DNA from: Escherichia coli
GTDB taxonomy: Bacteria; Pseudomonadota; Gammaproteobacteria; Enterobacterales; Enterobacteriaceae
Reading direction: 5' to 3' (one strand)
Assembly (NCBI RefSeq): GCF_030013595.1
Contig: NZ_CP122768.1
DNA: 64,000 nucleotides
A program made the position numbers and the translations under genes. Below are positions 2,933 to 36,442 of this stretch, one piece after another (positions within the stretch are counted from its first letter, which is position 1; every line of letters starts with the position of its first letter). The notes beneath the pieces were generated by a model that was given only the letters and a program-made list of their open reading frames with translations, ran no database searches and had not been told where the DNA came from.

Positions 2933-3433
2933 ATGATCAATGCACTGGGATTGCTGGAAGTGGACGGCATGGTCGCCGCGATAGATGCAGCTGATGCCAT
3001 GCTCAAAGCAGCTAACGTTCGTCTGCTCAGTCACGAAGTGCTTGACCCTGGTCGCCTAACGCTGGTGGTGGAAGGCGATCTGGCGGCGTGTCGTGCGGCG
3101 CTGGACGCAGGTTGTGCTGCCGCGATGCGTACCGGGCGTGTCATCAGCCGTAAGGAGATCGGTCGGCCAGACGATGACACCCAGTGGCTGGTTACTGGCT
3201 TTAACCGCCAGCCGAAGCAACCCGTAAAGGAACCCGACGCGCCAGTTATCGTCGCGGAATCTGCTGACGAGTTGTTGGCGCTGTTAACATCAGTACGTCA
3301 GGGAATGACGGCAGGAGAAGTGGCTGCCCACTTTGGCTGGCCGCTGGAAAAAGCCAGAAATGCGCTCGAACAGCTCTTTTCTGCCGGGACGTTACGTAAA
3401 CGCAGTAGTCGTTACCGTCTCAAGCCCCATTAA
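2933..3433 (+). CDS. eutK: bacterial microcompartment shell protein EutK
   Basis: 166 aa from ATG 2933 (track ORF starts at an upstream TTG); BMC domain LGLLEVDGMVAAIDAADAMLKAANV; RBS GGAGG upstream. Confidence 0.9.
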   Translation: MINALGLLEVDGMVAAIDAADAMLKAANVRLLSHEVLDPGRLTLVVEGDLAACRAALDAGCAAAMRTGRVISRKEIGRPDDDTQWLVTGFNRQPKQPVKEPDAPVIVAESADELLALLTSVRQGMTAGEVAAHFGWPLEKARNALEQLFSAGTLRKRSSRYRLKPH

Positions 3434-30535: not shown

Positions 30536-31462
30536 ATGAATTATTCTTTAAAACAATTAAAGGTTTTCGTCACAGTAGCGCAGGAGAAAAGTTTTAGTCG
30601 TGCAGGAGAGCGTATCGGCCTGAGCCAGTCGGCAGTGAGTCACAGTGTGAAGGAGCTGGAAAATCATACTGGTGTTCGCCTGCTGGACAGAACCACGCGT
30701 GAAGTGGTGCTTACAGATGCAGGGCAGCAGTTGGCTTTGCGTCTTGAGCGACTGCTGGATGAACTTAACAGCACGTTGCGCGATACCGGGCGTATGGGGC
30801 AACAACTGAGCGGAAAAGTTCGGGTCGCTGCCAGCCAGACCATTTCCGCGCATCTTATTCCGCAATGCATTGCTGAAAGCCATCGCCGCTATCCAGATAT
30901 TCAGTTTGTCCTGCACGATCGTCCGCAGCAGTGGGTGATGGAAAGTATTCGCCAGGGAGATGTCGATTTTGGCATCGTCATCGATCCAGGCCCAGTGAGC
31001 GATCTGCAATGTGAAGCGATTCTTTCCGAGCCTTTCTTCTTGCTTTGCCATCGCGATAGCGCTTTGGCCGCGGAAGATTATGTACCCTGGCAGGCATTAC
31101 AGGGAGCGAAATTGGTGTTGCAGGATTACGCGTCAGGCAGCCGACCGCTGATTGACGCAGCGCTGGCGCGCAATGGTATTCAGGCGAATATTGTGCAGGA
31201 GATTGGTCATCCGGCGACGCTGTTCCCGATGGTAGCCGCAGGCATCGGCATCAGTATTCTTCCCGCACTGGCGCTACCATTGCCTGAAGGTAGCCCACTG
31301 GTGGTAAAGCGCATTACGCCGGTGGTGGAACGCCAGTTGATGCTGGTGCGCAGAAAGAACCGTTCACTTTCCACCGCCGCACAAGCGTTATGGGACGTGG
31401 TACGAGGCCAGGGCCGTGCGCTAATGGCTGGGCGGGAAGGGGAGCCGCTGTATCAGATATAG
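30536..31462 (+). CDS. yfeR: LysR-family transcriptional regulator YfeR
   Basis: 308-aa ORF; N-terminal LysR HTH ([38 protein letters not shown]). Confidence 0.9.
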
Positions 31463-31499
31463 AGCTATTCATACTGCCGGGAGCCCCGGCAGTAATCAA

Positions 31500-32264
31500 T
31501 CAGAAATTAAATTTGATGGAGTAGATTATTGCATCCTGGTAAAAATCTTCGCCCAGTTTGTCATCCGCATAACGATACTGAATCCCTGTGGTGATGTGTG
31601 AAGTTGCATTCCACCAAAGTGCGACGGCACCGTTCAGACCTTCTTTGCCGCCATTACCTGCCGCGTAGGTGGCATCACGATCAAACTCGTACTCGTTCCA
31701 GTTGGTGAGGGTGAATTTCTCATTGCCCAGCATAAAGCTGTAACCTGCAACCCAACCGGCTACATAGCCGTTGTCGCCAGTGTAATAGGTTTGATCTGTA
31801 TAACGCTTAGCAAAGAACGGTTTGAACCACCAACCGCTGCCGGTGAAATTGTAGCCGATCCCGTAAAGGAACATATCGTCATGGAAATTCACACGATTCG
31901 CAGAACCGTAGGTGCCATACGCATGCAAGTAGAGATTAAATCCGGTGTCACCCAGGTAAATACGGTTGGTATTTTTAAATGTATAACGCTGCTCGCTACC
32001 CGGTTTATCATGACGATCATTATAAAAGTTTTCCCAGTCGAAGAACCCGTACATTTCTCCCCAACTAAAGTTAGCGCCGCCTTCCAGTTCCAGATATCCA
32101 AAATCATCTTTGTGTGATTTGGTCGACGATTTCTCAGTGGTTCTGCTAGTCCAGTCAAGATAATGAATACCTATATCAGCAAAACCGCCTTTAAATTCTG
32201 CATGGGATACTGCTGGTATCGCCAATACAGAAGAGAGTGTCAGAGTAAAAAGATGTTTTTTCAT
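31500..32264 (-). CDS. yfeN: putative outer membrane protein YfeN
   Basis: 254-aa ORF; signal peptide MKKHLFTLTLSSVLAIPAVSHA; aromatic-rich with C-terminal ...YSIKFNF typical of beta-barrels. Confidence 0.88.
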   Translation of the reverse strand: MKKHLFTLTLSSVLAIPAVSHAEFKGGFADIGIHYLDWTSRTTEKSSTKSHKDDFGYLELEGGANFSWGEMYGFFDWENFYNDRHDKPGSEQRYTFKNTNRIYLGDTGFNLYLHAYGTYGSANRVNFHDDMFLYGIGYNFTGSGWWFKPFFAKRYTDQTYYTGDNGYVAGWVAGYSFMLGNEKFTLTNWNEYEFDRDATYAAGNGGKEGLNGAVALWWNATSHITTGIQYRYADDKLGEDFYQDAIIYSIKFNF

Positions 32265-32512
32265 AGCATAATTCCCTATGCCGATCGTTATTAGTTGATT
32301 GCTTAATAAAAAGGTTGATTAAAAGCGGCATATTGTTAATGCAAGGGAAAGGAGAGTACCAATACAGTTTTTTCAGCCTATTAATAGTGAAAAAATATAA
32401 ATATATCGATATCGAATAACTATCGGATACAAGAAAAAAGTGTATTGGTATGAGGTAGGGCAATCTCGTTATAAAAAGGCGTTAGATTCCACCCTACAAA
32501 AAAAGGATATAT

Positions 32513-33346
32513 ATGTCTCAGGCTCAGTTTTCTCATAACCAACTGTATTGCGTAGATATTATCAAGACTTATAAACCTGATTTCACGCCACGAGTGGCCT
32601 TTATTTTAGGTTCCGGGCTGGGCGCGCTGGCCGATCAGATTGAGAACTCGGTCGCAATTTCCTACGAAAAGCTGCCTGGGTTCCCGGTAAGTACCGTACA
32701 CGGTCATGCGGGTGAGCTGGTGCTGGGTTATCTTCAGGGGGTGCCAGTGGCGTGCATGAAAGGTCGCGGACATTTCTACGAAGGTCGTGGGATGACCATC
32801 ATGATGGATGCAATCCGTACCTTTAAGTTGCTGGGCTGCGAGTTGCTGTTCTGCACCAATGCGGCTGGCTCACTGCGTCCTGAAGTGGGGGCCGGCAGTC
32901 TGGTCGCATTGAAAGATCACATCAACACCATGCCGGGAACGCCGATGGTGGGTCTTAATGATGAACGTTTTGGTGAGCGCTTCTTCTCGCTGGCGAATGC
33001 CTACGATGCGGAATACCGCGCACTGTTACAAAAAGTGGCGAAAGAAGAGGGGTTCCCTCTGACGGAGGGCGTGTTCGTCTCGTATCCGGGTCCGAATTTC
33101 GAGACTGCGGCGGAAATTCGCATGATGCAAATTATTGGTGGGGATGTTGTTGGTATGTCTGTGGTGCCTGAGGTTATTTCTGCTCGCCATTGCGAACTTA
33201 AAGTCGTTGCGGTCTCTGCGATTACCAACATGGCGGAAGGTTTAAGCGATGTGAAATTGTCACATGCGCAAACGCTGGCGGCTGCGGAGCTCTCTAAGCA
33301 GAACTTCATCAACCTTATTTGTGGCTTTCTGCGCAAAATTGCCTGA
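32513..33346 (+). CDS. xapA: xanthosine (purine nucleoside) phosphorylase II
   Basis: 277-aa ORF of PNP family; followed by xapB and xapR. Confidence 0.92.
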   Translation: MSQAQFSHNQLYCVDIIKTYKPDFTPRVAFILGSGLGALADQIENSVAISYEKLPGFPVSTVHGHAGELVLGYLQGVPVACMKGRGHFYEGRGMTIMMDAIRTFKLLGCELLFCTNAAGSLRPEVGAGSLVALKDHINTMPGTPMVGLNDERFGERFFSLANAYDAEYRALLQKVAKEEGFPLTEGVFVSYPGPNFETAAEIRMMQIIGGDVVGMSVVPEVISARHCELKVVAVSAITNMAEGLSDVKLSHAQTLAAAELSKQNFINLICGFLRKIA

Positions 33347-33405
33347 GAAAAACAATAAGAAACGGCCTCGCGGGTGAGGCCAAATGATGCGACAAGGAAA
33401 CGATT

Positions 33406-34662
33406 ATGAGCATCGCTTTGCGCTTAAAGGTAATGTCCTTTTTGCAATATTTTATCTGGGGGAGCTGGCTGGTTACCCTCGGTTCTTACATGATTAATAC
33501 CCTTCATTTCACCGGCGCTAATGTTGGCATGGTTTACAGTTCCAAAGGGATCGCCGCGATTATTATGCCTGGTATAATGGGGATCATCGCAGACAAATGG
33601 CTGCGTGCAGAACGTGCATACATGCTGTGTCACCTGGTGTGTGCAGGCGTACTTTTTTATGCGGCATCCGTAACTGATCCGGATATGATGTTTTGGGTGA
33701 TGTTAGTCAATGCGATGGCGTTTATGCCGACTATTGCGTTATCGAACAGCGTCTCTTATTCCTGTCTTGCCCAGGCAGGGCTTGACTCGGTGACCGCTTT
33801 CCCGCCCATTCGCGTTTTTGGTACGGTGGGGTTCATTGTCGCCATGTGGGCAGTAAGCCTGCTGCATCTGGAATTGAGTAGTCTGCAGCTGTATATCGCG
33901 TCCGGTGCGTCATTGCTGCTGTCGGCTTATGCGCTGACTTTGCCGAAGATTCCGGTTGCGGAGAAAAAAGCGACTACATCGCTTGCCAGCAAGCTGGGTC
34001 TGGATGCCTTCGTGCTGTTTAAAAATCCACGCATGGCTATCTTTTTCCTCTTCGCCATGATGCTGGGCGCGGTGCTGCAAATTACCAACGTTTTTGGCAA
34101 CCCGTTCCTGCATGATTTCGCCCGTAATCCTGAGTTTGCTGATAGCTTCGTGGTGAAATACCCGTCCATTTTACTGTCAGTTTCACAGATGGCTGAAGTC
34201 GGTTTCATTCTGACGATACCGTTCTTTTTGAAGCGTTTCGGTATTAAAACCGTCATGCTGATGAGTATGGTGGCGTGGACGCTGCGCTTTGGCTTCTTCG
34301 CCTATGGCGATCCGTCAACAACCGGATTTATTTTGCTGCTGCTGTCGATGATTGTTTATGGCTGTGCATTCGATTTCTTCAATATTTCTGGTTCGGTATT
34401 TGTCGAACAGGAAGTTGATTCCAGCATTCGTGCCAGCGCGCAGGGCCTTTTTATGACGATGGTAAATGGCGTCGGCGCATGGGTTGGCTCGATTCTGAGC
34501 GGTATGGCAGTGGATTACTTCTCGGTGGATGGCGTAAAAGATTGGCATACCATTTGGCTGATGTTTGCAGGGTATGCTCTTTTCCTCGCAGTGATATTTT
34601 TCTTTGGGTTTAAATATAACCATGACCCTGAAAAGATAACGCATCGTTCAGTTACACATTAA
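33406..34662 (+). CDS. xapB: xanthosine MFS permease
   Basis: 418-aa polytopic ORF (NupG/XapB nucleoside:H+ symporter family). Confidence 0.92.
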   Translation: MSIALRLKVMSFLQYFIWGSWLVTLGSYMINTLHFTGANVGMVYSSKGIAAIIMPGIMGIIADKWLRAERAYMLCHLVCAGVLFYAASVTDPDMMFWVMLVNAMAFMPTIALSNSVSYSCLAQAGLDSVTAFPPIRVFGTVGFIVAMWAVSLLHLELSSLQLYIASGASLLLSAYALTLPKIPVAEKKATTSLASKLGLDAFVLFKNPRMAIFFLFAMMLGAVLQITNVFGNPFLHDFARNPEFADSFVVKYPSILLSVSQMAEVGFILTIPFFLKRFGIKTVMLMSMVAWTLRFGFFAYGDPSTTGFILLLLSMIVYGCAFDFFNISGSVFVEQEVDSSIRASAQGLFMTMVNGVGAWVGSILSGMAVDYFSVDGVKDWHTIWLMFAGYALFLAVIFFFGFKYNHDPEKITHRSVTH

Positions 34663-34714
34663 AAGGATTCGCAGCTCTGTTCCTTGGGGCTGCTTTTATG
34701 ATAAAGGTTAATTA

Positions 34715-34873
34715 GTGAAAGATATTTTATTTTCTTCTGGCGTTGGTTTTGGCATTGGTGCTTTGTTTACAATCGTGCGCTTGCCTATTCCTGTACCAAA
34801 TGTATTACCGGGTATATTATCCATTGTGTTTATGTATGTCGGATATCTGGTGGTGAAATACTTTATGCCATGA
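34715..34873 (+). CDS. candidate small hydrophobic protein (52 aa), XapX-like
   Basis: GTG 34715 preceded by AAGG about 8 nt upstream; MKDILFSSGVGFGIGALFTIVRLPIPVPNVLPGILSIVFMYVGYLVVKYFMP; stop TGA 34871-34873; lies between xapB and xapR; below the 60-aa track cut-off. Confidence 0.5.
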   Translation: MKDILFSSGVGFGIGALFTIVRLPIPVPNVLPGILSIVFMYVGYLVVKYFMP

Positions 34874-34913
34874 TAATTTAATACGATGTATTTATTATAT
34901 GGAGCACTTAATT

Positions 34914-35798
34914 ATGGAACGCGTATACAGAACAGATCTTAAGTTGCTCCGTTATTTTCTTGCCGTAGCGGAAGAGTTGCATTTTGGTCGCGCAGCAGCG
35001 CGTTTAAATATGTCTCAGCCTCCGCTCAGCATTCATATTAAAGAGCTGGAAAATCAACTCGGCACGCAGCTTTTTATTCGCCATTCGCGCAGCGTCGTAC
35101 TGACACACGCGGGCAAAATCTTGATGGAAGAATCGCGTCGATTGCTGGTGAATGCAAATAATGTATTGGCTCGGGTTGAACAAATAGGTCGGGGAGAAGC
35201 AGGGCGGATTGAACTCGGGGTTGTGGGAACGGCAATGTGGGGACGGATGCGCCCGGTTATGCGGCGATTCCTCAGGGAAAATCCTAACGTTGACGTTCTT
35301 TTTCGCGAAAAGATGCCCGCGATGCAAATGGCCCTGCTGGAACGACGTGAACTCGATGCCGGGATCTGGAGAATGGCGACAGAACCACCGGCAGGTTTTA
35401 CCAGCTTACGGTTGCATGAATCGGCGTTTCTGGTGGCGATGCCTGAAGAGCATCATCTCTCATCATTTTCCACCGTTCCGCTGGAAGCGCTACGTGACGA
35501 GTATTTTGTTACAATGCCGCCCGTGTACACTGACTGGGATTTTTTGCAGCGAGTTTGCCAGCAGGTGGGATTTTCACCGGTTGTTATTCGCGAAGTTAAT
35601 GAACCGCAAACGGTACTCGCCATGGTCAGTATGGGCATTGGTATCACATTGATAGCGGACAGCTACGCACAAATGAACTGGCCAGGTGTCATTTTCCGTC
35701 CGCTCAAACAGCGCATCCCTGCAGATTTATATATTGTTTATGAAACACAGCAGGTGACGCCCGCGATGGTTAAGCTGTTGGCTGCATTGACACAGTAG
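34914..35798 (+). CDS. xapR: LysR-family activator of xapAB
   Basis: 294 aa from ATG 34914 (MERVYRTDLKLLRYFLAVAEELHFGRAAARLNMSQPPLS...). Confidence 0.9.
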   Translation: MERVYRTDLKLLRYFLAVAEELHFGRAAARLNMSQPPLSIHIKELENQLGTQLFIRHSRSVVLTHAGKILMEESRRLLVNANNVLARVEQIGRGEAGRIELGVVGTAMWGRMRPVMRRFLRENPNVDVLFREKMPAMQMALLERRELDAGIWRMATEPPAGFTSLRLHESAFLVAMPEEHHLSSFSTVPLEALRDEYFVTMPPVYTDWDFLQRVCQQVGFSPVVIREVNEPQTVLAMVSMGIGITLIADSYAQMNWPGVIFRPLKQRIPADLYIVYETQQVTPAMVKLLAALTQ

Positions 35799-35875
35799 GT
35801 GAGGAGACAGGAATTGCCGGAAATAGTAGTCTGCTAAGTGAAGCGCATCAGGCAATTTCGCAAATCGCAGATAGC

Positions 35876-35902
35876 AAAAAAGCGCCTTTAGGGCGCTTTT
35901 TT
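35876..35902. terminator. bidirectional intrinsic terminator (xapR / tRNA operon)
   Basis: AAAAAAGCGCC-TTTAG-GGCGCTTTTTT hairpin with A and T runs. Confidence 0.65.
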
Positions 35903-35906
35903 ACAT

Positions 35907-35982
35907 TGGTGGGTCGTGCAGGATTCGAACCTGCGACCAATTGATTAAAAGTCAACTGCTCTACCAACTGAGCTAACGACCC
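35907..35982 (-). tRNA. lysV: tRNA-Lys (anticodon UUU)
   Basis: Reverse complement reads GGGTCGTTAGCTCAGTTGGTAGAGCAGTTGACTTTTAATCAATTGGTCGCAGGTTCGAATCCTGCACGACCCACCA, 76 nt with encoded CCA. Confidence 0.95.
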
Positions 35983-35986
35983 GAAG

Positions 35987-36062
35987 TGGTGGGTGATGAC
36001 GGGATCGAACCGCCGACCCCCTCCTTGTAAGGGAGGTGCTCTCCCAGCTGAGCTAATCACCC
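35987..36062 (-). tRNA. tRNA-Val (anticodon UAC)
   Basis: Reverse complement reads GGGTGATTAGCTCAGCTGGGAGAGCACCTCCCTTACAAGGAGGGGGTCGGCGGTTCGATCCCGTCATCACCCACCA, 76 nt. Confidence 0.95.
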
Positions 36063-36108
36063 ACTTCGGTACTTCACATTTTTACAAGAAATTTAGCTGG
36101 CGAGAAAG

Positions 36109-36184
36109 TGGTGGGTGATGACGGGATCGAACCGCCGACCCCCTCCTTGTAAGGGAGGTGCTCTCCCAGCTGAGCTAATCACCC
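36109..36184 (-). tRNA. tRNA-Val (anticodon UAC), second identical copy
   Basis: Identical 76-nt sequence to 35987-36062, separated by a 46-bp spacer. Confidence 0.95.
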
Positions 36185-36442
36185 CCGCTGTGTGGAGTCG
36201 CATTATAGGGAGAGTTCAAAATGAGTCAACGCATTTTCTAAAGAAATTGTTCGTTCGTCGTAAATTTAAGCAAGATGATCGCAAAACAGACCGTTTTGCG
36301 CAATTTGTCAACGAAAACAATAATGCGTAAGGTTGCAACCCGAACTACATTGAGGAATCAGGCGGGAGTGATAGAATATCGCCCACTCAATTTTTCCAGG
36401 ATTTGCCGGTTGTCGGCATCTTTCTAAACGTAAGGCCATTTC

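What the first reader, a model, noticed from the sequence alone, without database searches (positions are those of the whole stretch)
34715..34873. Candidate 52-aa hydrophobic protein between xapB and xapR (XapX-like)
A GTG-initiated ORF with an AAGG Shine-Dalgarno about 8 nt upstream encodes MKDILFSSGVGFGIGALFTIVRLPIPVPNVLPGILSIVFMYVGYLVVKYFMP. It has Gly-rich and hydrophobic segments consistent with one or two TM helices, and its position matches the small 'XapX domain' proteins I recall being described next to xanthosine-utilisation genes. It falls below the ORF-track size cut-off, and its function is unknown; it might be an accessory subunit or regulator of the XapB permease.
Basis: partly seen in the sequence, partly recalled or inferred. 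Interest (0 to 1): 0.4.

Follow-up and report, generated by a model that had tools for sequence, protein, structure and literature searches.

The report
xapX: small membrane protein gene
The 52-codon reading frame between xapB and xapR is a real, strongly conserved gene for a tiny two-helix membrane protein of the already catalogued 'XapX domain' family; its function is untested, and its relatives often sit beside nucleoside-degrading enzymes in distant microbes.

Summary
Observation confirmed. A GTG-initiated 52-codon ORF lies at 34715-34873 (+), with AAGG 7 nt upstream, between xapB and xapR. An ORF this long arises in about 12% of shuffles of the spacer, so the case rests on other evidence:
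- It scores 64.2 bits against NCBIfam TIGR03510 (XapX domain; cut-off 27.8).
- dN/dS is 0.04-0.15 among eight enterobacterial orthologues, all 52 codons and all directly after xapB. Off-frames give values above 1.
- The protein is identical in the five diverse E. coli alleles compared.

RefSeq already annotates it as 'DUF1427 family protein' under the match in every listed E. coli genome that carries the region. The K-12 MG1655 record has no CDS there, although the ORF is intact. AlphaFold2 predicts a helix-loop-helix hairpin with conserved glycines and an LPxPxP loop.

In Pragia a deoC-like gene separates xapX from xapR, so xapX belongs with xapAB and is not a xapR leader. Single-copy relatives lie next to nucleoside phosphorylases, a nucleoside hydrolase or an adenosine deaminase in five independent lineages, often with no XapB-type permease. 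Tandem pairs lie next to acetamidase/formamidase genes. A XapB-specific accessory role is therefore not the best fit; an autonomous membrane role is my leading, unproven, guess. The family is known, the function is unknown, and the interest is modest.

The parts
34715..34873 (+). xapX coding sequence (GTG start, TGA stop at 34871-34873), 52 aa
   Evidence: ORF list and sequence. TIGR03510 at 64.2 bits. dN/dS 0.04-0.15 in this frame only. RefSeq CDS WP_000651752.1 at the same place in other E. coli.
34704..34707 (+). Shine-Dalgarno-like AAGG, 7 nt before the GTG
   Evidence: Read from the sequence. SD-like purine runs (aagg, aaggag, ggag, aggg) lie at the same distance in the orthologues.
34671..34699 (+). 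Stem-loop (34671-34693, 9 pairs) followed by TTTTAT, between the xapB stop and xapX: a weak intrinsic terminator or attenuator, or an mRNA 3' stabiliser
   Evidence: Terminator scan. Fold of -13 to -14 kcal/mol, not better than shuffles of the 76-nt stretch (z = -0.5). A hairpin at the same position but with a different sequence in 7 of 8 orthologues; a T-tract follows only in Escherichia, Pseudocitrobacter and Phytobacter.
34718..34774 (+). Codons for predicted helix 1 (residues 2-20; Gly-rich GVGFGIGALF; G11 and G15 conserved in at least 90% of the family)
   Evidence: AlphaFold2 secondary structure. Family alignment A4.
34775..34804 (+). Codons for the proline-rich loop (residues 21-30, V-RLPIPVPNV; P24, P26 and P28 nearly invariant)
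34805..34864 (+). Codons for predicted helix 2 (residues 31-50; G33 nearly invariant, G43 invariant; family consensus GxxGIVGxYxGY)
32513..33346 (+). xapA (xanthosine phosphorylase), first gene of the operon
   Evidence: ORF list. RefSeq annotation of the identical region.
33406..34662 (+). xapB (xanthosine/proton symporter), immediately upstream of xapX
34914..35798 (+). xapR (LysR-type activator), 40 nt downstream of the xapX stop
34870..34898 (+). Sigma-70 promoter-like match (ATGATA-17-TATTAT) overlapping the xapX stop. It is a possible xapR promoter element, but its predicted start would fall after the xapR SD (GGAG at 34901-34904), so it is doubtful.
   Evidence: Consensus scan, 9 of 12 matches; only 2 sites were found in the scanned region against 6.0 expected from shuffles, so it is weak evidence. 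Sequence reading.

Best explanation
SHOWN. xapX is a genuine protein-coding gene. It encodes a 52-aa, very hydrophobic helix-loop-helix (two-TM hairpin) protein of the XapX-domain family (TIGR03510). It is conserved at the same place, directly after xapB, across Enterobacterales.

INFERRED, about 0.8. It is the third cistron of the xanthosine-inducible xapA-xapB operon, reached by read-through of a weak hairpin/TTTTAT element. It is not a leader for xapR.

INFERRED, about 0.6. Its function belongs to purine-nucleoside catabolism in general, because single-copy homologues recur next to nucleoside phosphorylases, hydrolases and deaminases in unrelated lineages.

MECHANISM I COMMIT TO (inference only, about 0.35). 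The hairpins self-associate through their conserved small-residue (Gly) faces into an autonomous oligomeric membrane conduit for a small uncharged catabolite. In the xap operon, where XapB already imports xanthosine, this would most plausibly ease the exit of the released base (xanthine). In the acetamidase/formamidase loci the paired homologues would carry the amide or its products.
For: Coding:
- TIGR03510 scores 64.2 bits against a cut-off of 27.8, and 50 of 50 aligned relatives match it.
- dN/dS is 0.04-0.15 with saturated dS, while the two off-frames give 1.4-4.8.
- There are 8 synonymous and 0 non-synonymous differences between the window and Escherichia sp. MOD1, and 9 and 0 between two Chimaeribacter species.
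- All eight orthologues are exactly 52 codons, with ATG or GTG at the same position.
- Five E. coli alleles, spanning 95.6-100% identity over the 361-nt query region, encode the same protein; all 7 variable sites are synonymous.

Fold: two helices, mean pLDDT 87.8. G43 is invariant, and G11, G15, P24, P26, P28 and G33 are conserved in at least 90% of 50 sequences.

Operon membership:
- The gene order xapA-xapB-xapX is kept in all orthologues.
- In Pragia fontium a 268-aa ORF, deoC-like by my own reading of its sequence, lies between xapX and xapR and overlaps the xapX stop.
- Entomohabitans has no hairpin between xapB and xapX.

Link to nucleoside catabolism, independent of XapB:
- A Crp-like regulator, then a PNP 47% identical to XapA, then a XapX-like gene in a MAG.
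- PfkB, PNP_UDP_1, adenosine deaminase, a XapX-like gene, then a Metalloenzyme-family protein.
- A XapX-like gene followed by deoD in Salinivibrio.
- An ECF transporter, a nucleoside hydrolase, then a XapX-like gene in the archaeon Halomarina.

Autonomous role:
- In those MAG and Salinivibrio loci, and in the acetamidase loci examined, the XapX-domain proteins are the only membrane proteins seen in the cluster.
- Nineteen of the 20 loci with a complete tandem XapX-domain pair have an FmdA_AmdA gene adjacent on the same strand, across Proteobacteria, Actinomycetota, Bacillota and Syntrophorhabdaceae.
- The transporters that do co-occur are of three unrelated kinds: the XapB-type nucleoside permease, another MFS transporter, and an ECF transporter. 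This argues against one conserved transporter partner.
Against: - There is no expression evidence. The ORF is absent from the K-12 MG1655 RefSeq annotation and from the one Ribo-seq supplement I could search. The xap operon would be off in standard media anyway (established knowledge of XapR induction).
- A terminator-like hairpin with TTTTAT lies between xapB and xapX, so expression may be low.
- No conserved polar or charged residue lies inside either helix. That is unusual for a transporter and typical of packing subunits.
- Most characterised bacterial proteins of this size act as accessory subunits (my own knowledge).
- A linker-fused homodimer gave a poor AlphaFold2 model (pLDDT 59, pTM 0.39).
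- About 10 of roughly 18 sampled single-copy contexts have nothing to do with nucleosides.
- No single substrate or product is common to all contexts.
Confidence: 0.4

Rival explanations
1. XapX is a dedicated accessory subunit or modulator of the XapB permease. Like AcrZ with AcrB, KdpF with KdpABC or MgtS with MgtA, it would pack against the transporter through its glycine-rich helices to stabilise it or tune its activity.
For: - The gene lies 52 nt after xapB in every enterobacterial orthologue.
- A XapX-domain gene follows an MFS transporter gene by 2 nt on a Yersinia frederiksenii plasmid.
- One shares an operon with an ECF transporter in Halomarina.
- The helices are glycine-rich and have no conserved polar residues.
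- Most characterised small membrane proteins work this way (my own knowledge).
Against: - The family is conserved from bacteria to archaea, with a nearly invariant loop, yet the neighbouring transporters are unrelated to each other. The Yersinia MFS shows no similarity to XapB.
- Several nucleoside clusters, and the acetamidase clusters whose neighbours I examined, contain no transporter at all.
Confidence: 0.25
2. XapX has another membrane role that is neither a conduit nor transporter-specific. Examples would be an adaptor to a housekeeping membrane machine (protease, insertase) or a signal-relaying peptide.
For: Roughly half of the sampled single-copy contexts are unrelated to nucleosides: FMN reductase, CsoR/RlmH, argS-rpoE-pyrG, thioredoxin, and a phage-like region. 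Strict conservation of the LPxPAP loop suggests a conserved partner.
Against: No specific partner or signal is indicated by any result here. Adjacency to nucleoside enzymes in 5 of about 18 sampled contexts is unlikely to be chance, in my judgement and without a computed background.
Confidence: 0.2
3. The ORF acts mainly as an upstream ORF or leader whose translation controls xapR, 40 nt downstream. The peptide itself would be irrelevant.
For: The stop codon is only 40 nt from the xapR ATG. xapR is reported to be constitutive and not autoregulated, so its promoter must lie nearby (PMC7205307). A promoter-like match overlaps the ORF's 3' end, and an RpoN-holoenzyme SELEX peak maps to the xapB-xapR spacer (PMC8743547).
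Against: - The amino-acid sequence is under strong purifying selection and belongs to a family found far from any xapR.
- The xapX-xapR distance ranges from 40 to about 900 nt, and in Pragia another ORF lies in between.
Confidence: 0.04
4. It is a chance ORF in an AT-rich spacer, or a decaying pseudogene that is not expressed.
For: An ORF of at least 52 codons appears in 11.6% of shuffles of the spacer. There is no CDS in the K-12 MG1655 record. No literature or Ribo-seq hit was found. Truncated variants exist in some assemblies.
Against: The HMM match is far above threshold. dN/dS is 0.04-0.15 while off-frames exceed 1. Length and start are invariant in eight genera or species. The protein is identical in five diverse E. 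coli alleles.
Confidence: 0.02

Closest known systems
NCBIfam TIGR03510 'XapX domain' (PGAP product names 'XapX domain-containing protein' and 'DUF1427 family protein')
   Same: The window protein matches 48 of the model's 49 positions (2-48) at 64.2 bits. It has the same length, the same two hydrophobic helices and Pro-rich loop, and the eponymous xapB-xapR position. RefSeq annotates the identical protein, WP_000651752.1, in other E. coli.
   Different: Nothing differs structurally; this is the family's name-giving member. The family has no assigned function, and I found no paper on it in the searchable library.
Pfam PF07235 DUF1427
   Same: Relatives of the window protein match the first ~50 positions of this 84-position model, and 33 of 50 aligned family members hit it at E <= 0.01.
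   Different: The window protein gives no Pfam hit even at E <= 1. The relatives tested score 13-27 bits, all below the gathering score of 27.1. The C-terminal ~35 positions of the model have no counterpart in the 52-aa protein.
Small accessory membrane proteins of transporters (AcrZ-AcrB, KdpF-KdpABC, MgtS-MgtA, SgrT-PtsG); comparison from my own knowledge
   Same: It has about 50 residues or fewer, is hydrophobic, is encoded in or beside the transporter operon, and is missed by standard annotation of K-12.
   Different: There is no sequence relationship (no Pfam hit). Those proteins have one TM helix or none, whereas XapX has two. They are narrowly distributed with one partner, whereas the XapX domain spans bacteria and archaea with varied neighbours.
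AmiS/UreI putative amide/urea channels in amidase and urease operons (from my own knowledge)
   Same: Both are membrane proteins encoded as the sole membrane component beside an amide-hydrolysing enzyme. This parallels the tandem XapX-domain pairs beside FmdA_AmdA genes.
   Different: AmiS/UreI are six-TM proteins of about 170-200 aa. No sequence similarity was detected (no Pfam hit for the window protein). The analogy concerns the paired subfamily, not the xap gene itself.

Membership tests
NCBIfam TIGR03510 XapX domain | HMM score at or above the curated cut-off (27.8 bits) | tested here: met
   64.2 bits, E = 5.8e-18, protein residues 4-50 on profile positions 2-48 of 49.
NCBIfam TIGR03510 XapX domain | A hydrophobic unit of about 50 residues: two helices joined by a proline-rich loop, with conserved glycines | tested here: met
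   AlphaFold2 helices 2-20 and 31-50, mean pLDDT 87.8. G43 is invariant, and G11, G15, P24, P26, P28 and G33 are conserved in at least 90% of 50 sequences.
NCBIfam TIGR03510 XapX domain | For the name-giving member: encoded between xapB and xapR | tested here: met
   Window gene order. The same order holds in seven other Enterobacterales loci and on a Salmonella record.
Pfam PF07235 DUF1427 | Score at or above the gathering threshold (27.1 bits) over the 84-position model | tested here: not met
   No hit at E <= 1. Relatives reach at most 27.0 bits and cover only about positions 1-50.
Transporter accessory small proteins (AcrZ/KdpF/MgtS type) | Physical, specific association with the cognate transporter | not testable with these tools
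   This needs co-purification, two-hybrid assays or a multimer prediction with interface scores; the structure tool returns no inter-chain confidence.
Transporter accessory small proteins (AcrZ/KdpF/MgtS type) | Co-occurrence restricted to one transporter family | tested here: not met
   Homologues occur with a XapB-type permease, an unrelated MFS, an ECF transporter, or no transporter.
Regulatory leader peptide / uORF of xapR | Fixed juxtaposition to the regulated gene, with little constraint on most of the peptide sequence | tested here: not met
   dN/dS is 0.04-0.15. The spacer to xapR ranges from 40 to about 900 nt, with a deoC-like ORF inserted in Pragia.
Phage holins (Pfam Phage_holin_3_3, PHROGs) | Significant match to a holin family model | tested here: not met
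   No PHROGs hit and no Pfam hit for the window protein. Only 4 of 50 relatives give matches to Phage_holin_3_3, with a best E-value of 2.6e-4.
Anti-phage defence components (PADLOC) | Match to a PADLOC model | tested here: not met
   No hit at E <= 1.

The most novel reading that the evidence does not exclude
XapX-domain proteins would be a previously unrecognised class of minimal solute conduits: hairpins of about 50 residues and two TM helices that oligomerise (homo-oligomers for single genes, hetero-oligomers for the tandem pairs). They would serve as the membrane component of nucleoside and small-amide catabolic clusters from enterobacteria to haloarchaea. In E. coli, xapX would handle the purine base released from xanthosine.
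Probability: 0.3. Interest if true: 0.7.

Novelty: already known. Interest (0 to 1): 0.3.

Why it matters
The gene and its family are already in the databases, so the finding itself is not new. Three things still matter. First, the reference annotation of E. coli K-12 MG1655 lacks a gene that is intact there and clearly under selection, inside a textbook operon (xapABR). Second, nobody appears to have tested what it does. Third, the gene-neighbourhood survey here gives a concrete, testable lead: a recurring link between single-copy XapX-domain genes and purine-nucleoside-cleaving enzymes, and between paired ones and acetamidase/formamidase genes. If the protein proves to be an autonomous conduit, it would be among the smallest known. 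If it is a transporter accessory, it would add a widely conserved example to a class that is mostly lineage-specific.

Tried and rejected
- Literature. Searches for XapX, TIGR03510, DUF1427, the peptide string, and xapR/xapB with 'small protein' found nothing about this gene. The only DUF1427 paper merely lists the domain as plant-associated. The two original xap papers (PMID 7559336 and 10400599) are not held, so mapped xapR or xapB transcript ends could not be checked.\n- Ribo-seq small-ORF papers. There is no mention of xap in the main texts or in the one held supplement. The other paper has no supplement held. This is uninformative, because the operon is uninduced in standard media.\n- RNA alternative. 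An Rfam scan of 34500-35100 gave only a chance-level hit (18.7 bits against a gathering score of 55.8). The hairpin's stability is not unusual against shuffles.\n- Solved structures. A profile search of PDB sequences gave only generic TM matches (E >= 0.25), and Foldseek against PDB gave no matches.\n- Linked homodimer. An AlphaFold2 run with a GS linker and 35 paired rows gave pLDDT 59 and pTM 0.39. This is inconclusive and is not evidence against oligomers.\n- K/R topology count. The termini-minus-loop bias is only +1 for the window protein and averages 1.7 across the family. The longer members of the acetamidase-linked kind have positive residues only at the termini, which suggests N-in/C-in with the loop outside; the single-gene forms are ambiguous.\n- First attempt at a genome scan. 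The 50-sequence alignment failed for lack of a conserved stretch, and a narrower alignment was used instead. This biases the recovered distant loci towards the LP[IV]P[AV]PNVL subfamily.\n- PHROGs and PADLOC gave no hits.

Full report
**1. What is in the sequence**

Positions 34715-34873 (+) hold a GTG-initiated ORF of 52 codons ending in TGA. AAGG lies at 34704-34707, 7 nt before the GTG. An in-frame TAA at 34709-34711 rules out a longer N-terminus.

The flanking genes are xapA (32513-33346), xapB (33406-34662) and xapR (34914-35798), with yfeN on the other strand upstream. The window here is 100% identical to E. coli strain 104 over the 361 bases compared.

The ORF alone is not remarkable. 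An ORF of at least 52 codons appears on some strand in 11.6% of shuffles of the 251-nt xapB-xapR spacer.

**2. Why it is nevertheless a real gene**

- **Family match.** The protein matches NCBIfam TIGR03510 (XapX domain) at 64.2 bits, against a curated cut-off of 27.8.
- **Conserved position.** A scan of one genome per species found orthologues directly after xapB in Escherichia sp., Pseudocitrobacter, Entomohabitans, Phytobacter, two Chimaeribacter species and Pragia. The same order occurs on a Salmonella record.
- **Conserved form.** All eight are exactly 52 codons. They start with ATG or GTG at the same position and have an SD-like purine run upstream.
- **Conservation level.** Their identity to the window protein (71-98%) is similar to that of XapB (77-99%) and XapR (63-96%).
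- **Purifying selection.** Pairwise Nei-Gojobori dN/dS is 0.04-0.15 where dS is not saturated. The same DNA read in the two other frames gives 1.4-4.8. The closest pairs differ by 8 and 9 synonymous changes and no non-synonymous ones.
- **Within E. coli.** Five alleles, spanning 95.6-100% identity over the 361-nt query region, all encode the identical protein WP_000651752.1, although XapB and XapR have allelic protein variants. All 7 variable sites in the ORF are synonymous.

This pattern cannot come from an overlapping promoter or RNA element. An Rfam scan found nothing credible.

**3. Annotation status**

RefSeq/PGAP already calls this CDS 'DUF1427 family protein' in the E. coli genomes that carry the region. 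4061 of 5426 complete genomes have a match covering at least 80% of the query, and the feature is listed under every near-full-length match shown.

The K-12 MG1655 record NC_000913.3 has no CDS between xapR and xapB. The ORF is nonetheless intact there and encodes the identical protein, differing from the window by two synonymous changes.

I found no paper on XapX, TIGR03510 or this peptide. The only DUF1427 paper lists the domain without a function. Two E. coli small-ORF Ribo-seq preprints do not mention it. That means little, because the operon needs xanthosine for induction.

**4. The protein**

It is very hydrophobic (GRAVY 1.31). AlphaFold2, run with a 50-sequence family alignment, predicts helix 2-20, loop 21-30 and helix 31-50, with mean pLDDT 87.8.

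A HMMER scan of 1.84 billion cluster representatives found 77 related clusters, about 21-106 aa long including fragments. In an alignment of 50 of these and closer relatives, G43 is invariant. G11, G15, P24, P26, P28 and G33 are at least 90% conserved. The consensus is GxxxG...F..L.LPIPAP..L.G..GIVG.Y.GY. No conserved charged or polar residue lies within the helices.

All 50 match TIGR03510. Thirty-three match Pfam DUF1427 (PF07235) at E <= 0.01; in the ten rescanned individually, the matches covered only positions 1-50 of 84 and stayed below the gathering score. The window protein itself has no Pfam hit. It is therefore a member of TIGR03510 but not, by Pfam's own threshold, of PF07235.

Further comparisons:
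- PDB sequence and fold searches found no relatives.
- PHROGs and PADLOC gave nothing.
- K/R counts give only a weak bias (+1) towards both termini being cytoplasmic.
- A linker-fused homodimer model was poor, which is inconclusive.

**5. Which transcript carries it**

A nine-pair hairpin (34671-34693) followed by TTTTAT lies between the xapB stop and the xapX SD. A hairpin of different sequence occupies the same place in 7 of 8 orthologues. A T-tract follows it only in Escherichia, Pseudocitrobacter and Phytobacter, and Entomohabitans has no hairpin. I read this as a weak terminator, attenuator or 3' stabiliser that allows read-through; that is an inference.

The decisive comparative point is Pragia fontium. 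There xapX stays attached to xapB, and a 268-aa ORF overlaps the xapX stop and precedes xapR. By my own reading, its sequence resembles E. coli DeoC. Across orthologues the xapX-xapR gap ranges from 40 to about 900 nt. So xapX travels with xapAB and not with xapR, and the leader-peptide idea is rejected.

The xapR promoter is not located by anything I could access. xapR is reported to be constitutive (PMC7205307). A weak sigma-70-like match overlaps the xapX stop. An RpoN-holoenzyme SELEX peak was reported in the xapB-xapR spacer (PMC8743547).

**6. What the relatives' neighbourhoods say**

*(a) Tandem pairs.* Distant members recovered by the genome scan are mostly tandem pairs of two XapX-domain genes, about 70-90 aa and 64 aa. 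Nineteen of the 20 loci with a complete pair have an acetamidase/formamidase-family gene (Pfam FmdA_AmdA) directly adjacent on the same strand. These span Pandoraea, Oxalicibacterium, Afipia, Ancylobacter, Actinomycetota, Sulfobacillus and other Bacillota, and Syntrophorhabdaceae. The regulators nearby are GntR- or AraC-type, and no other transporter is present in three of the four loci whose neighbours I examined; the Sulfobacillus locus also carries an ABC permease gene about 4 kb away.

*(b) Single-copy genes.* I sampled about 18 independent contexts. Five place the gene directly beside nucleoside-cleaving or nucleoside-deaminating enzymes:
- the enterobacterial xapA-xapB-xapX;
- a MAG with a Crp-like regulator, a PNP 47% identical to XapA, then the XapX-like gene;
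- a metagenomic operon ADP_ribosyl_GH, PfkB, PNP_UDP_1, A_deaminase, XapX-like gene, then a 393-aa Metalloenzyme-family protein;
- Salinivibrio, where the XapX-like gene is followed 22 nt later by deoD;
- the haloarchaeon Halomarina, with ECF S/T/A components, a nucleoside hydrolase, then the XapX-like gene overlapping it by 4 nt.

Weaker cases are:
- Natrinema, convergent with a 5'-deoxyadenosine deaminase;
- a Yersinia plasmid with a KdgM-type porin, an MFS transporter unrelated to XapB, then the XapX-like gene, near an ADP-ribosylglycohydrolase;
- an enterobacterial MAG with DeoD 2.5 kb away.

The rest are unrelated: FMN reductase, CsoR/RlmH, a sugar-type operon, argS-rpoE-pyrG in Firmicutes, RadC, Crp alone, thioredoxin, and a phage-like region. 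Direct adjacency to such enzymes in 5 of about 18 contexts is far more than I would expect by chance. I did not compute a formal background.

**7. Mechanism**

*Shown:* a conserved coding gene, a two-helix hydrophobic product, and linkage to xapAB.

*Inferred:* co-transcription with xapAB, and a role tied to nucleoside catabolism.

It fits poorly with a family conserved from bacteria to archaea whose neighbouring transporters are of three unrelated kinds or absent. In several clusters the XapX-domain protein or proteins are the only membrane component.

I therefore rank an autonomous, oligomeric membrane function first, at about 0.35. In this view it is a conduit for a small uncharged catabolite, and in xap most plausibly for the released base. 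A transporter accessory comes second, at about 0.25, and another membrane role third, at about 0.2. All three are inference, and none is supported by a direct test here.

**8. Verdict**

This is the name-giving member of a catalogued family, already annotated in the other E. coli genomes examined, so the novelty is 'already known'. What remains open is the function, together with the gene's absence from the K-12 reference annotation. Interest is modest (0.3).

Noticed in passing
L010, L012-L016, L018-L029, L031, L032 (e.g. L024 5959-7448; L027 5643-7209): Two adjacent XapX-domain genes (a longer first one with a conserved YVGRxE N-terminus and FGRP tail, and a 64-aa second one) form a conserved cassette. 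In 19 of the 20 complete-pair loci it lies next to an acetamidase/formamidase-family gene on the same strand, across at least four phyla. In three of the four loci whose neighbours I examined there is no other transporter.
   Followed up: partly
window 31400-35800 (yfeN-xapA-xapB-xapX-xapR block): About a quarter of complete E. coli genomes (4045 of 5426 cover at least 80% of the query) lack the whole block. Among the genomes listed with only the neighbouring tRNA-Val/Lys cluster are O157:H7 and O55:H7 strains. The xap locus is therefore an accessory segment beside a tRNA cluster.
   Followed up: partly
window 34500-34715 versus 34715-35060: There is a sharp change in divergence from K-12. The last 163 nt of xapB plus the spacer differ at 24 of 215 sites (about 11%), while xapX and the xapR 5' end differ at 3 of 346. 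Strain UM146 shows the opposite pattern. This suggests a recombination breakpoint at the xapB/xapX junction.
   Followed up: no
L009 6144-6950 (Pragia fontium): A 268-aa ORF is inserted between xapX and xapR and overlaps the xapX stop, extending the xanthosine operon in this genus. By my own reading its sequence resembles E. coli DeoC (deoxyribose-phosphate aldolase); I did not test this.
   Followed up: partly
K-12 coordinate 2,520,564 (older MG1655 numbering), i.e. the xapB-xapR spacer, window ~34800-34900: A published genomic SELEX study lists an RpoN-holoenzyme binding peak in this spacer (PMC8743547). By eye I saw no good TGGCAC-N5-TTGC match there.
   Followed up: no
window 35848-36330: A cluster of tRNA genes lies on the minus strand between xapR and gltX: three tRNA-Val and one tRNA-Lys, plus an element annotated as 'RtT sRNA' in the identical strain-104 record.
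   Followed up: no
L066 (metagenome contig, 3065-3220): One XapX-domain gene sits in a run of very short back-to-back ORFs together with RecA-like and MazG-like genes. This looks phage- or mobile-element-like.
   Followed up: no
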